In this document: piece by piece, positions 12,001-15,000 of the stretch | How positions within the stretch are numbered: the stretch's first letter is position 1 | How the letters are laid out: every line of letters starts with the position of its first letter | From: a virus | Lineage: Duplodnaviria > Heunggongvirae > Uroviricota > Caudoviricetes | DNA length: 25,537 nt | IMG/VR virus record: IMGVR_UViG_2698536454_000004 | Reading direction: 5' to 3' (one strand) | Position numbers: made by a program

Positions 12001-15000
12001 TTTGTCATGTCCACCAGCGGGACGAATGTTTTTCAGTCTTGCCACGACAGTCTGGCGGTGCAGGCCAGATAAAGCCGCCAGTTGATTAATATTCAGCACC
12101 AAGTTTTTCAACTCATGATCCATATTTCCTCCGGAGAGCTTTAAACATGCATCGTGCGAACAACTTTAAGAAAACGCGTTCGATGTCGAACAAAAACCGC
12201 TCAATTCGACATACAAAAAACAAATAACCATTAACAATCAATAATATGCAAAGATGATGGTGGCCGATAAAAATGCAAAAACTAGCCTTTTTCCGCGACG
12301 CTCCCGCCCCGTGGCAGGCCACCCCACCGGGAGGACCCGTCAGCCTGACAGCTCTGACGAACGTCTGATACAACGCCTTGCATGAATGGCATCGGGATAA
12401 TCCAGAAAGGCATAGCATCGTGCCCACAAGAATCTGTGTAAGTGTCCTGTTTCTTCCACCCACGCACAGGACTGGCGAGCATGAGGGACAAACCCGCGAA
12501 CCATAAACGCGGTAAAAACCCGGTGTGCATCGTTTTTGATTATTCCCGCACACTCGCGCAGAAGGAGTTCCCCGTCGGGCTACGGTCTCTGTTAATACGG
12601 GAATACGGCGACGATACAGCGCATGATGTGTCAGGCTTGAATACCTTTATCCGTTAAAAGGGATATCAGTTAAGCTATCCCGTGTAGGGTATAAGCCATT
12701 ATCAAAGCCACTCTGTAGGGAGTGGCTTTTGTAATGGCAATAAAAAGCCCCGCGAATGCGAGGCTAAATCCTGGTATTTGTAATGACTGGCTCTTATCTC
12801 AACGCAGCCCCTTACCGCGCGCAAGATGCTCAATATCAAGCATCAGCAATGAGATGTTTAATCTGGATTCACTCCAGAAGTGATCACCATCCTGTCTACA
12901 GAGCCAGATGTGAAGGATGATGAGTAAAATTATCGCTATCATCGAAGGCATTGCGTCCTGATGTATTCCTGAAGCGTTCTCAGTGCTGTTTGGTCGCGGA
13001 TAATTCCGTCCCGGATACCGAGAACGTTTCGTCCAGCAACTGGAGAGAGTTCGACGGTGGCATCATTGCCCATGCCGGAGGCGCTGGAGGTTTCGGCTGA
13101 GGATGGCACAGGGCATTTTCCTTTGACGAACACCCGACCACCATTATCAAGCTTGCGCCGAAGAGCATCATTTTCAGCTTTCGCATCAGCTAACTCCTTC
13201 GTGTATTTAGCATCGAGTGCATCAGCAGAACGCTGGCGCTGCTGCATGTCAGTAATGGTGGCGGTCGCCTGCTTCAGCTCACTGACTTTTTTATCTCGCT
13301 GTTCTTTGTAGGCGATGGCGTTATCACGGTAATGATTGACCGCCCACGACAGGCAGACGATGATGCAGATAACCAGAGCGGAGATAATCGCGGTTACTCT
13401 GCTCATTGTTGCCCCCACAAACAGACTTCACGCTCAATCTCACGACGAGTCATCAGGCCTTTCCATTGCTTACCGCCAGCGTATATCCAGCGACGTAGCT
13501 GGTCACATGCGCCTTTGATATCGCCCTGGTTTATTTTGCGAAGAAGCGTCGATGTTCTGAAATTGCCAGCACCCACGTTGTAGACGAACGAGTAAAGAGC
13601 GCCGCGCGTTGTTTCCGGTATATCGACTTTGATGTACGGGTTAATTTGTCTGGCAACCGTGGCAAGGTCTTTATTCAGGAGGGCTTTGCATTCTGCTTCG
13701 GTATACGTTTTACCGAGCATGATGTCTTTTCCGGTGTGTCCGTGACATACAGTCCATACGCCAACGATATCTTTGTATGGTATGTAGCTGACACCTTCCA
13801 GGCCATCGTCACCACTTGGGCCAGTGATTAACACTGATGCTATAGCAATTGCTCCGCCACCAATAGCAGCAGCAACTGCTTTTCGTAATGATGGAGGCAT
13901 TATTCACCTCTCGCAGCCTTGCGCTTATCTTCTTTAATCTTGAAATAAAGGTTTGTCAGGTACGTCAGCAGGCCAAATACCAGGCTACCCAGCACACCTA
14001 TTGCTGCCCACTGTGAGGGCGTGACTTTATCGAGCAGCTGTAAAAACCAGTAACCGGCACTACCTGCTGAGGTGCCATAGGCGACACCCGTTGTTAACTT
14101 ATCCATGGATTTCATAACCCCACCTCGCAGATGCGGGTGCTGTGTAATGGAAATAAAAAGGCCACCTGACGTGGCCACCAAATTATTTCCCCACCAGCTC
14201 GTTTATCTCTTTCACTGTCTGGTTAAACCGCTCTGACTCAAGCTCAACACCTAAGGCCCGACGCCCCAGCGCCATTGCTGCTTTTATTGTGGAACCGGAT
14301 CCCATAAAAAAATCAGCAACCAGATCACCAGGTCGACTACTGGCATTGATTATTTGCCTGAGCATATCCGCCGGTTTCTCACACGGATGTTTACCCGGGT
14401 AGAACTGAACGGGTTTATGCATCCAGACATCGGTATAAGGCACGGAGACTGATACGGAGAAATAGCGCCGGAGAGATTTAAACTCATCCAGCAATTCAGA
14501 ATATTTGCGATTCAGTGAATCATAAGATGCCACCAGCTGGTGGTGTGGTTGTTCCAGTTGTTGTTCCTGAAACTTCTCTGCCGCTATACGGGAAAACAGT
14601 GCCTGTAACTTCCGATAGTCAGCCTCATTCGGCAACTGCCACTGACTGGCACCAAACCAGTGGGAAACCATATTTTTCTTACCTGTGGCTTCGGCAATTT
14701 GTTTTGCCGTTATACCCAGTTCGGCACGAGCATCCCTGAAATACGAAATCAGCGGTGCCATTATGTGCTGTTTGAGTTCCCTTTCTTTTGCCGCATAGCC
14801 GTCACTTTTGCCGCGATATGGCCCCTGGTAATGTTCAGCAAACAGAACGCGCTCTGTGGCTGGAAAATATGCACGCAGACTTTCTTTATTACACCCATTC
14901 CAACGTCCGGACGGCTTCGCCCAGATGATATGGTTAAGCACGTTGAAACGTTCACGCATCATGATCTCAATATCAGATGCCAGGCGATGCCCACAGAACA

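What the first reader, a model, noticed from the sequence alone, without database searches (positions are those of the whole stretch)
12293..12314. cosN-like sequence about 180 bp upstream of the small terminase gene
The minus-strand sequence ACGGGGCGGGAGCGTCGCGG differs from the recalled lambda cosN region ACGGGGCGGCGACCTCGCGG at only a few positions, and the spacing to the Nu1-like start matches lambda. This marks the mature genome end and supports cos-type packaging. Nearby repeated CGAACA/CGACAT motifs (12150..12210) could be cosB-type terminase binding sites.
Basis: partly seen in the sequence, partly recalled or inferred. Interest (0 to 1): 0.35.

Follow-up and report, generated by a model that had tools for sequence, protein, structure and literature searches.

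The report
Lambda-type cos site of a prophage
This is the ordinary DNA-packaging (cos) site of a lambda-like E. coli prophage, where terminase cuts to make 12-base sticky ends; it is real and correctly read, but it is a well-known kind of element found in about 40% of complete E. coli genomes.

Summary
The minus-strand 20-mer ACGGGGCGGGAGCGTCGCGG lies at 12312..12293 and matches lambda cosN at 16/20. All four differences fall at bp 7, 8, 9 and 11 of the cohesive end, the half known to vary naturally. GenBank records of phages cdtI and Tritos begin exactly with GGGCGGGAGCGT. LLS ends at the equivalent of 12310 and annotates a 12-nt cohesive site. Hafnia phage yong2 begins exactly at +13. Downstream lie a remote Nu1 homologue (TerS, Pfam DUF1441; ATG at +187 versus +191 in lambda) and a gpA-type TerL. 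The cosB suggestion is partly right. The CGAACA/CGACAT motifs sit at positions conserved in 45 diverse relatives (TGTCGA +98..102; TGTTC +117..121). Predicted cohesive end: 5'-GGGCGGGAGCGT, window 12309..12298. This is a known kind of site, so interest is low.

The parts
12332..12338 (-). cosQ: GGGTCCT, 29 bp upstream of the predicted top-strand nick. In lambda this subsite is the packaging-termination signal.
   Evidence: 7/7 identical to lambda cosQ, which lies 30 bp from the nick in lambda. Near-invariant in 58 close relatives. GGGTCC is present at this position in 34 of 52 species-level loci.
12293..12314 (-). cosN: CCACG|GGGCGGGAGCGT|CGCGG. The predicted top-strand nick is between 12310 and 12309, and the bottom-strand nick between 12298 and 12297.
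   Evidence: 16/20 to lambda. The CG dinucleotides flanking both nicks are conserved. The cdtI and Tritos records start at the equivalent of 12309, the LLS record ends at the equivalent of 12310, and the yong2 record starts at +13. The segment is invariant in close relatives.
12298..12309 (-). Predicted 12-nt 5' cohesive end, 5'-GGGCGGGAGCGT-3'.
   Evidence: It differs from lambda GGGCGGCGACCT at positions 7, 8, 9 and 11. It differs from Gifsy-1 GGGCGGCAGCGT at position 7 only. The same 12-mer occurs in cdtI, Tritos, PhiR40_1, phi458, HannyBb and 569R4 and in 4 of 52 species-level loci.
12266..12297 (-). I2-like segment (+13..+44): CGCGGAAAAAGGCTAGTTTTTGCATTTTTATC, with A5 and T5 tracts.
   Evidence: +13..+34 is invariant or near-invariant in 58 close relatives and conserved across divergent groups. 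[quoted passage not shown]
12253..12263 (-). R3-like block, CCACCATCATC (+47..+57): the candidate principal TerS binding site.
   Evidence: It lies at the R3 position (lambda bp 55-63 is the contacted segment; N15 R3 is bp 48-60; PMC9026076). CAnCAnCA is invariant in alignment A1. A (CAY)3 block starts at +45..50 in 45/45 diverse loci. The block sequence covaries with the TerS recognition helix.
12236..12248 (-). IHF-like site (I1 analogue), +62..+74: bottom strand AATCAATAATATG, one mismatch to WATCAANNNNTTR.
   Evidence: The same strand and position (+59..+76) carry a match with 0-1 mismatch in all 13 annotated relatives examined, and lambda I1 lies at +79..91 on the same strand. In the diverse set, 29/45 loci have it at +62..64.
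12205..12212 (-). Element B, ATGTCGAA (+98..+105): inverted copy of element C and candidate R2 analogue.
   Evidence: It forms a perfect 8-bp inverted pair with 12190..12183 (p about 0.04 against shuffles). TGTCGA occurs at +98..102 in 43/45 diverse loci.
12183..12192 (-). Element C, TGTTCGACAT (+118..+127): direct orientation, candidate R1 analogue.
   Evidence: TGTTCnnCA is invariant in alignment A1. T[GA]TTC starts at +117..121 in 38/45 loci. In 84% of diverse loci this element resembles the R3-like block at p<=0.05, but not in the window-type cosB.
12146..12162 (-). Element D, TGTTCGCACGATGCATG (+148..+164): second direct TGTTCG element, within a block shared by the window-type and 4F5-type subgroups. 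Role unknown.
   Evidence: AAAGTTGTTCGCA-GATGCATGTTTAAA is nearly invariant in 58 relatives. It is absent from the short (about 129-nt) cos versions.
11632..12123 (-). Small terminase subunit (163 aa), DUF1441 / phrog_141, with an N-terminal HTH (LNINQLAALSGLHRQTVVARL).
   Evidence: Pfam DUF1441 at 4.6e-44. phrog_141 at 2.7e-77, with a cross-hit to the Nu1 family phrog_57 at 8e-9; Nu1 hits phrog_141 at 5.6e-8. hhalign aligns residues 10-51 with Nu1 residues 3-47.
9530..11632 (-). Large terminase subunit (700 aa), lambda gpA type.
   Evidence: Pfam GpA_ATPase at 1.4e-71 and GpA_nuclease at 2.7e-85.

Best explanation
The region 12338..about 12146 (minus strand) is the cos site of a lambdoid prophage, built like lambda cos: cosQ, cosN, I2, cosB.

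Inferred mechanism, by homology with lambda. After induction and concatemer formation, the small terminase subunit (11632..12123) binds cosB through its N-terminal HTH. Binding is probably at the CCACCATCATC block at +47..57, and at the inverted and direct TTCGACAT elements at +98..127, helped by an IHF-induced bend at +62..74. This positions the gpA-type large subunit (9530..11632) to nick the two strands 12 bp apart, between 12310/12309 on the gene-sense strand and 12298/12297 on the other. The result is 5'-GGGCGGGAGCGT cohesive ends.

Packaging then runs towards decreasing window coordinates, with terminase, head and tail genes entering first. It ends at the next cos, where cosQ (12338..12332) and cosN are needed for the terminating cut.

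Shown here: sequence homology of cosQ and cosN to lambda; conservation and fixed spacing of all subsites in relatives; coincidence with the boundaries of deposited phage genomes; the terminase gene types.

Inferred: the actual nicks, TerS and IHF binding, and which elements act as R3, R2 and R1.
For: - Alignment to lambda spans cosQ and cosN.
- Match to the lambda 20-mer is 16/20, unique in the window, with chance about 0.02 window-wide.
- Records of cdtI and Tritos start with the identical GGGCGGGAGCGTCGCGGAAAAAGGCTAGTTTTT.
- LLS, with the same TerS family, ends at the equivalent of 12310 and carries a misc_feature for a 12-nt 5' cohesive site.
- yong2 starts at +13.
- The Ayreon assembly breaks exactly at cosN.
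- The terminase genes are a gpA-type TerL and a remote Nu1 homologue.
- The differences from lambda lie only at bp 7-12, as in the published natural variation (PMC4669245). The Gifsy-1 end was verified as GGGCGGCAGCGT.
- 58 close relatives show -5..+34 invariant.
- 45 diverse loci show (CAY)3, the IHF-like site, TGTCGA and TGTTC at fixed distances from cosN.
- The R3-position block covaries with the TerS recognition helix.
- Relatives that are about 98% identical across the 801-base terminase-upstream query, cos region included (PhiR40_1, PhiR47_1, PhiR55_1), are deposited as complete phage genomes.
Against: - No physical end mapping is available for this element. The record boundaries of cdtI, Tritos and LLS may themselves have been set by homology: the LLS paper says 'we infer' and the cdtI paper could not be read.
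- In the window-type cosB the R3-position block does not recur downstream (best 6/9, p about 0.99). The three-R-repeat logic of lambda is therefore not evident within this cosB.
- The B/C inverted pair is only marginally significant by itself (p about 0.04).
- The IHF match has one mismatch.
- TerS homology to Nu1 rests on profile cross-hits only (BLASTP finds nothing; hhalign probability is low; the AF2 model is unusable).
Confidence: 0.93

Rival explanations
1. The site is a relic. The cos sequence is intact, but the prophage in this window is defective or never induced, so no cutting occurs in this host.
For: Only 25.5 kb of the element is visible, so integrase and tail-fibre integrity are unknown. 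Many E. coli lambdoid prophages are defective (general knowledge). The region occurs in up to 7 places per genome.
Against: TerS, TerL, portal, protease-capsid, gpZ, tail tube, the lysis cassette, Q and cI are all intact ORFs with full-length Pfam matches. The 222-bp cos region is 97.7% identical to that of the deposited phages PhiR40_1, PhiR47_1 and PhiR55_1, and TerS is identical over the part of the PhiR40_1 gene that was fetched. All cos subsites are unmutated.
Confidence: 0.05
2. The conservation reflects a protein-coding gene. The 82-aa ORF 12282..12530, annotated as a hypothetical protein in several phage records, has a 3' end covering cosQ and cosN.
For: The ORF exists and matches phrog_17397 at 1e-47. 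It is annotated in mEp460 and PhiR40_1.
Against: Polymorphic columns by codon position are 9:5:10, with no third-position excess, and 4 of 23 homologues carry in-frame stops. The cosQ-cosN block is conserved in cdtI, lambda, Stx phages and mEp213, whose upstream sequence is unrelated to this ORF. PGAP annotates nothing here in E. coli genomes.
Confidence: 0.01
3. The TGTTCG-ACAT-CGAACG hairpin followed by a T-run (12192..12168) is an intrinsic terminator or RNA element ahead of the terminase genes, not a TerS binding site.
For: The terminator-like scan reports it.
Against: The fold is -5.4 kcal/mol, no better than shuffles (z = -0.06). The number of terminator-like sites in the region is near the shuffle expectation. 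The hairpin is not preserved in relatives, which keep TGTTC but lose the complementary arm. No Rfam match was found.
Confidence: 0.01

Closest known systems
Bacteriophage lambda cos (cosQ-cosN-I2-cosB)
   Same: [quoted passage not shown] The stagger is 12 nt. An A/T-tract segment follows cosN. The IHF-like site is on the same strand. The distance to the TerS start codon is similar (+187 versus +191). TerL is gpA-type.
   Different: The cohesive end differs at bp 7, 8, 9 and 11. The cosQ-to-nick distance is 29 rather than 30 bp. The cosB sequences are unrelated: CAYCAYC and TTCGACAT elements versus lambda CGTTTCC(T/G)TTCT. TerS is DUF1441 / phrog_141, with no BLASTP similarity to Nu1.
cos of phages cdtI (AB285204) and Tritos (OV696610)
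   Same: Identical from cosQ through about +33, including the cohesive end GGGCGGGAGCGT. Both records start at that base. TerS belongs to the same Pfam family (42% identity).
   Different: cosB differs beyond about +34: the R3 position holds GGCGGCGGCAGC. The TerS N-terminal DNA-binding region is divergent (HRDTVKKRL helix). A different packaging specificity is therefore expected.
cos of mEp213 / LLS (PMC12315714; PQ299149 misc_feature)
   Same: Same TerS family and recognition-helix type (HRQTV-ARL). Same layout: CATCATC block, TTGAT site, GATGTCGAA, then TGTTCACCATC. A 12-nt 5' end is inferred by the Smith and Feiss groups.
   Different: The cohesive end is GGGCGGCGCGCT. cos is shorter, with the TerS ATG at +130. 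Element D is absent.
Gifsy-1 cos (Feiss-lab comparisons, PMC4669245)
   Same: The cohesive end GGGCGGCAGCGT differs from the window's at position 7 only. cosB is described as R3-I1-R2(inverted)-R1.
   Different: Gifsy-1 TerS is a true Nu1/phage 21-type protein, and its R sequences are lambda/21-like.
N15 simple cosB
   Same: The critical TerS site lies at about bp 48-60 after cosN.
   Different: N15 lacks the IHF site and the nearby inverted and direct repeats. The window has the complex layout.

Membership tests
[quoted passage not shown] | cosN sequence with the lambda-like left half and conserved CG dinucleotides flanking both nick positions | tested here: met
   ACG|GGGCGG...T|CGCGG. Positions 1-6 are identical to lambda, CG is at -2/-1 and CG at +13/+14. 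All differences lie at bp 7-12, as in natural variants (PMC4669245).
lambda-like cos site | Virion DNA actually carries 12-nt 5' single-stranded complementary ends at this position | not testable with these tools
   Only indirect evidence is available. The cdtI and Tritos records start at +1, LLS ends at -1 and annotates the cohesive site, yong2 starts at +13, and the Ayreon assembly breaks at cosN.
lambda-like cos site | cosQ, a 7-bp GGGTCCT about 30 bp upstream of the nick | tested here: met
   GGGTCCT at 12338..12332, positions -29..-23.
lambda-like cos site | I2: an AT-rich, A/T-tract segment between cosN and cosB (about bp 18-50) | tested here: met
   +18..+44 reads AAAAAGGCTAGTTTTTGCATTTTTATC. 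It is conserved in relatives. Bending was not measured.
lambda-like cos site, complex cosB | R3 - IHF site - inverted R2 - R1: three related TerS-binding repeats with R3 at about bp 48-63 | tested here: inconclusive
   Positions and orientations fit: a block at +47..57, an IHF-like site at +62..74, an inverted element at +98..105 and a direct element at +118..127. All are conserved in 45 loci. However, in this cosB the R3-position block is not a clear repeat of the other two, and binding is untested.
lambda-like cos site | Adjacent gpA-type large terminase with ATPase and endonuclease domains | tested here: met
   PF05876 at 1.4e-71 and PF20454 at 2.7e-85.
Nu1-type small terminase | Sequence membership in the Nu1 family with an N-terminal winged HTH | tested here: inconclusive
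   The best families are DUF1441 and phrog_141, not Nu1. Reciprocal cross-hits of about 1e-8 link phrog_141 and phrog_57. BLASTP finds nothing. hhalign gives E = 0.01 over the HTH. The AF2 single-sequence model is unusable.

The most novel reading that the evidence does not exclude
The most novel reading not excluded concerns cosB. The DUF1441-type small terminases may use an experimentally uncharacterised packaging specificity, distinct from those of lambda, 21, phi80 and N15. Its key site would be a (CAY)n block at +45..58 that covaries with the recognition helix: HRQTV-ARL with CATCATC, HRDTVKKRL with GGCGGCGGC, DRGTVRRRL with CCTCCACCACC. In addition, about a third of species-level loci replace the supposedly invariant cosQ GGGTCCT with AGGTACT. 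If true, this family offers a natural recognition-code series for TerS-DNA specificity and a natural cosQ variant for studying packaging termination.
Probability: 0.5. Interest if true: 0.3.

Novelty: already known. Interest (0 to 1): 0.12.

Why it matters
Practically, it fixes the mature genome ends and the packaging direction for this prophage and for its relatives in about 40% of complete E. coli genomes. That helps with correct phage genome orientation. It flags spurious ORF calls across cos and assembly artefacts at cos, as in the Ayreon and mEp460_4F5 records. It also predicts which elements could be co-packaged or hijacked, for example by cos-bearing islands. Conceptually it adds nothing new: lambda-like cos sites and their natural cosN variation are well described. 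The only modestly interesting by-product is the comparative picture of cosB for the DUF1441 TerS family.

Tried and rejected
- Reading Asakura 2007 (cdtI) and Vahanian 2017 (cosN natural history) failed because neither is held. I could not establish whether the cdtI ends were mapped experimentally, or whether GGGCGGGAGCGT is listed in that catalogue.
- The Tritos paper contains no statement on cos or termini. No yong2 paper with termini data was found. A literal search for the 12-mer found only unrelated papers.
- A PDB sequence search with TerS gave no meaningful hit.
- The AF2 single-sequence model had pLDDT 53, so no fold search was attempted. I ran no further search on a deeper alignment because the TerS fold is peripheral to the finding.
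- The terminator reading of the TGTTCG/CGAACG hairpin was rejected.
- The Rfam scan of the region found nothing relevant.
- The coding-gene explanation for the conservation was rejected.
- The lambda-style test that the R3 block is repeated downstream was positive for most relatives but negative for the window-type cosB. The test for an inverted pair was marginal in the window and negative in relatives.
- The gapped cosQ...cosN pattern search was uninformative, because the window's spacing is 1 bp shorter than the lambda spacing I encoded.
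Full report
OBSERVATION

The minus strand of the window reads ...GACGGGTCCTCCCGGTGGGGTGGCCTGCCACGGGGCGGGAGCGTCGCGGAAAAAGGCTAGTTTTTGC.... I fetched both ends of lambda (NC_001416), joined them and aligned them with the window.
- The 20-mer matches lambda ACGGGGCGGCGACCTCGCGG at 16/20 without gaps.
- It is the only site in the window within four mismatches of the lambda sequence.
- Only 2.2% of 2000 first-order Markov simulations of the window had such a site anywhere on either strand.
- The chance of one falling in the roughly 100 nt ahead of a terminase gene, on the correct strand, is orders of magnitude lower.

The alignment also extends upstream to ACGGGTCC-TCCCGGTG, which is lambda's cosQ region. 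GGGTCCT is perfect at 12338..12332, 29 bp before the predicted nick, compared with 30 bp in lambda.

GENE CONTEXT

- ORF 11632..12123 (-) is a 163-aa DUF1441 protein (4.6e-44).
- ORF 9530..11632 (-) is a 700-aa lambda gpA-type large terminase, with ATPase at 1.4e-71 and nuclease at 2.7e-85.
- A lambda-family portal follows. Upstream lie Rz, lysozyme and a P21-type holin.
- Further genes are Q antiterminator, a DNA methylase, a KilA-N protein, a replication HTH protein, an S24 cI-type repressor, gpZ, the tail tube protein, and a ClpP-protease/capsid fusion.

The order is the standard lambdoid late-operon order, with the candidate cos exactly where lambda has it.

The small subunit has no BLASTP similarity to Nu1. 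It matches PHROG 141 'terminase small subunit' (2.7e-77) and cross-hits Nu1's PHROG 57 (8e-9, residues 8-159), while Nu1 cross-hits PHROG 141 (5.6e-8). hhalign pairs its residues 10-51 (LNINQLAALSGLHRQTVVARL...) with Nu1 residues 3-47, the winged-HTH domain, though weakly. The TerS ATG is at +187 from cohesive-end base 1, versus +191 in lambda.

GENOME-END EVIDENCE FROM RELATIVES

BLAST against 50,697 phage records gave the following.
- Records of phage cdtI (AB285204) and Tritos (OV696610) begin at base 1 with GGGCGGGAGCGTCGCGGAAAAAGGCTAGTTTTT. They end with ...CCTGCCACG, so their boundary is exactly the predicted top-strand nick, window 12310|12309.
- Phage LLS (PQ299149, same TerS family) ends at the equivalent of 12310. 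It carries a misc_feature '5'extended single-strand cohesive site GGGCGGCGCGCT'. Its paper says this end is inferred, with M. Feiss's analysis of mEp213, and that Nanopore reads of virion DNA did not cover the ends around cos (PMC12315714).
- The record of Hafnia phage yong2 (same TerS family, same downstream layout) ends with a 12-mer, GGGGCAGCGACA, and begins with CGCGGGAAACGGCTAGTTTTT. That boundary is the predicted bottom-strand nick at +12|+13.
- The Ayreon record, assembled from virion DNA and gap-filled, has about 150 nt of chimeric fill, including a duplicated TerS-gene fragment, exactly between CCACGGGG and GGAAAAAGG. The authors stated that they had not located cos (PMC5764929).
- mEp460_4F5 starts 5 nt before the nick and lacks 2 nt of the end.

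None of this is a direct end-mapping experiment on this element. However, five independent records have their boundaries or an assembly break at or within a few nt of the two predicted nick positions.

FIT TO PUBLISHED KNOWLEDGE

The Feiss laboratory defines lambda-like phages by 12-base 5' ends similar to lambda's. They note that differences at bp 7-12 are common (N15 at 9 and 12; Gifsy-1 at 8, 9 and 11), because the right half is functionally tolerant. cosQ, the left half and the CG dinucleotides at the nicks are conserved (PMC4669245). I verified the Gifsy-1 end as GGGCGGCAGCGT.

The window's end, GGGCGGGAGCGT, differs from lambda at 7, 8, 9 and 11, and from Gifsy-1 at 7 only. It has CG at -2/-1 and at +13/+14.

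In 52 species-level loci encoding this TerS family, positions 1-3 are essentially invariant and 7-12 are highly variable. The window's 12-mer occurs in 4 of them.

COS ANATOMY AND cosB

Mature coordinate m corresponds to window 12310-m. In 58 distinct close relatives from viral contigs, -5..+34 is invariant or nearly so. cosB is more variable, with conserved islands. Across divergent groups (alignment A1) the invariant columns are:
- cosQ;
- the cosN left half and CGCGG;
- AA..GGC..TTTT (I2-like);
- CAnCAnCA at +48..55;
- TTG.T at about +69;
- TGTTCnnCA at +118..126.

An IHF-consensus match (0-1 mismatch) lies on the bottom strand at +59..+76 in every annotated relative. This includes cdtI and Tritos, which have a different cosB. 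Lambda I1 is at +79..91 on the same strand.

In 45 diverse loci with the HRQT-type recognition helix, the elements sit at fixed distances from cosN:
- a (CAY)3 block starts at +45..50 in 45/45;
- the IHF-like site is at +62..64 in 29/45;
- TGTCGA is at +98..102 in 43/45;
- T[GA]TTC is at +117..121 in 38/45.

The block at the R3 position changes with the TerS recognition helix:
- HRQTV-ARL goes with CATCATCATC-type blocks;
- HRDTVKKRL (cdtI type) goes with GGCGGCGGCAGC;
- DRGTVRRRL (Halomonas, Marinobacter, Haliea) goes with CCTCCACCACC.

This matches the published layout for complex cosBs, R3-I1-R2(inverted)-R1, with R3 near bp 48-63 (PMC9026076; PMC4669245). Fels-1 shows the cleanest case: CATCATCATCAT, then AGATGATGA, then TTCATCATC.

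In the window, the corresponding elements are:
- CCACCATCATC at 12263..12253;
- AATCAATAATATG on the bottom strand at 12248..12236;
- ATGTCGAA at 12212..12205;
- TGTTCGACAT at 12192..12183;
- a further TGTTCGCACGATGCATG at 12162..12146.

CAVEATS ON cosB

- In most relatives the direct element at about +120 resembles the R3-position block (84% at p<=0.05). In the window-type cosB it does not (best 6/9, p about 0.99).
- The window's B/C inverted pair is perfect (8/8) but only marginally unusual (p about 0.04). Relatives lack a significant inverted pair.
- The loci are phylogenetically related, so counts such as 45/45 overstate independence.
- Binding by TerS and IHF is an inference.

RIVALS

- The 82-aa ORF 12282..12530 spans cosQ and cosN and is annotated as a hypothetical protein in some phage records. 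It shows no third-codon-position excess (9:5:10) and has stops in 4 of 23 homologues. The cosQ-cosN block is conserved in phages whose upstream sequence is unrelated. PGAP annotates nothing here.
- The terminator-like hairpin at +118..133 is no more stable than shuffles (z = -0.06) and is not conserved.
- Rfam finds nothing relevant.
- A silent relic in a defective prophage cannot be excluded from 25.5 kb. However, every visible gene is intact. The 222-bp cos region is 97.7% identical to that of the deposited phages PhiR40_1, PhiR47_1 and PhiR55_1, and TerS is identical over the part of the PhiR40_1 gene that was fetched.

PREVALENCE AND NOVELTY

The 222-bp cos region matches in 2158 of 5426 complete E. 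coli genomes, 1403 of them at 80% coverage or more. TerS relatives with the same cos layout occur across Enterobacterales and beyond.

Lambda-like cos sites, their subsites and the natural variation of cosN have been studied for decades and catalogued (Vahanian et al. 2017, cited in PMC12315714 and PMC9026076; not readable here). The identical cohesive-end sequence already heads two GenBank phage records. The finding is therefore correct but ordinary.

The modest residue of interest has two parts.
- The cosB of the DUF1441 TerS family appears not to have been dissected experimentally in the literature I could reach.
- 16 of 52 loci carry AGGTACTCC at the cosQ position, although cosQ variation was described as 'not apparent' (PMC4669245).

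VERDICT

The feature is already known. Interest is 0.12.

Noticed in passing
window 12282..12530 (-): An 82-aa ORF (phrog_17397) spans cosQ and cosN, so it would be split in virion DNA. Some phage records annotate it as a hypothetical protein. It shows no codon-position bias in polymorphisms (9:5:10) and has stops in 4 of 23 homologues, so it is probably a spurious call.
   Followed up: yes
L002 (Ayreon MF807953, record 43416..44708), locus about 990..1145: The deposited Ayreon genome has about 150 nt of chimeric fill exactly at cosN, including a duplicated fragment of its own TerS gene. The annotated 'putative late gene regulator' CDS lies on it. This is likely a gap-filling artefact at the physical DNA ends.
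   Followed up: partly
L001/L005 (mEp460_4F5 LR595868 ends): The record starts 5 nt before the predicted nick (CCACGGGGCGG...), and its cohesive-end region lacks 2 nt relative to all relatives (GGGCGGGAGCGCGG). This is probably an end-of-assembly error.
   Followed up: no
L112, L113, L115, L121, L130, L132, L135, L137, L138, L154, L155, L160 and others (about -30 from the nick): 16 of 52 species-level loci with this TerS family have AAGGTACTCC where cosQ CGGGTCCTCC is expected. PMC4669245 states that natural variation in cosQ is not apparent. This may be a natural cosQ variant.
   Followed up: partly
L163, L164, L166 (Marinobacter, Halomonas, Haliea): Recognisable cosQ, cosN and I2-like layouts with DUF1441-type TerS occur in marine gammaproteobacteria. 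There the R3-position block is CCTCCACCACC and the recognition helix is DRGTVRRRL, an example of helix/site covariation.
   Followed up: partly
window 5841..8060 (-): A 739-aa ORF fuses a ClpP-type prohead protease domain (residues 95-255) to a major capsid domain (441-736). This is the Gifsy-2/mEp213-type head gene arrangement mentioned in PMC12315714.
   Followed up: no
window 14183..15235 (-): A 350-aa N6/N4 DNA methyltransferase gene lies between the Q antiterminator (16519..17313) and the holin, a typical moron position in the late operon.
   Followed up: no
window 12746..12765 (-): A strong terminator-like hairpin (8 pairs, 6 GC, followed by a T-run) lies downstream of Rz and upstream of cos. 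Ayreon annotates a terminator at the homologous place.
   Followed up: no
window 12146..12170 (-), +140..+164: AAAGTTGTTCGCACGATGCATGTTTAAA is almost invariant between the window-type and 4F5-type subgroups, although the cosB around it diverges. It is absent from the short-cos relatives. It could be a fourth TerS site or a translation/regulatory element for terS. It remains unexplained.
   Followed up: partly
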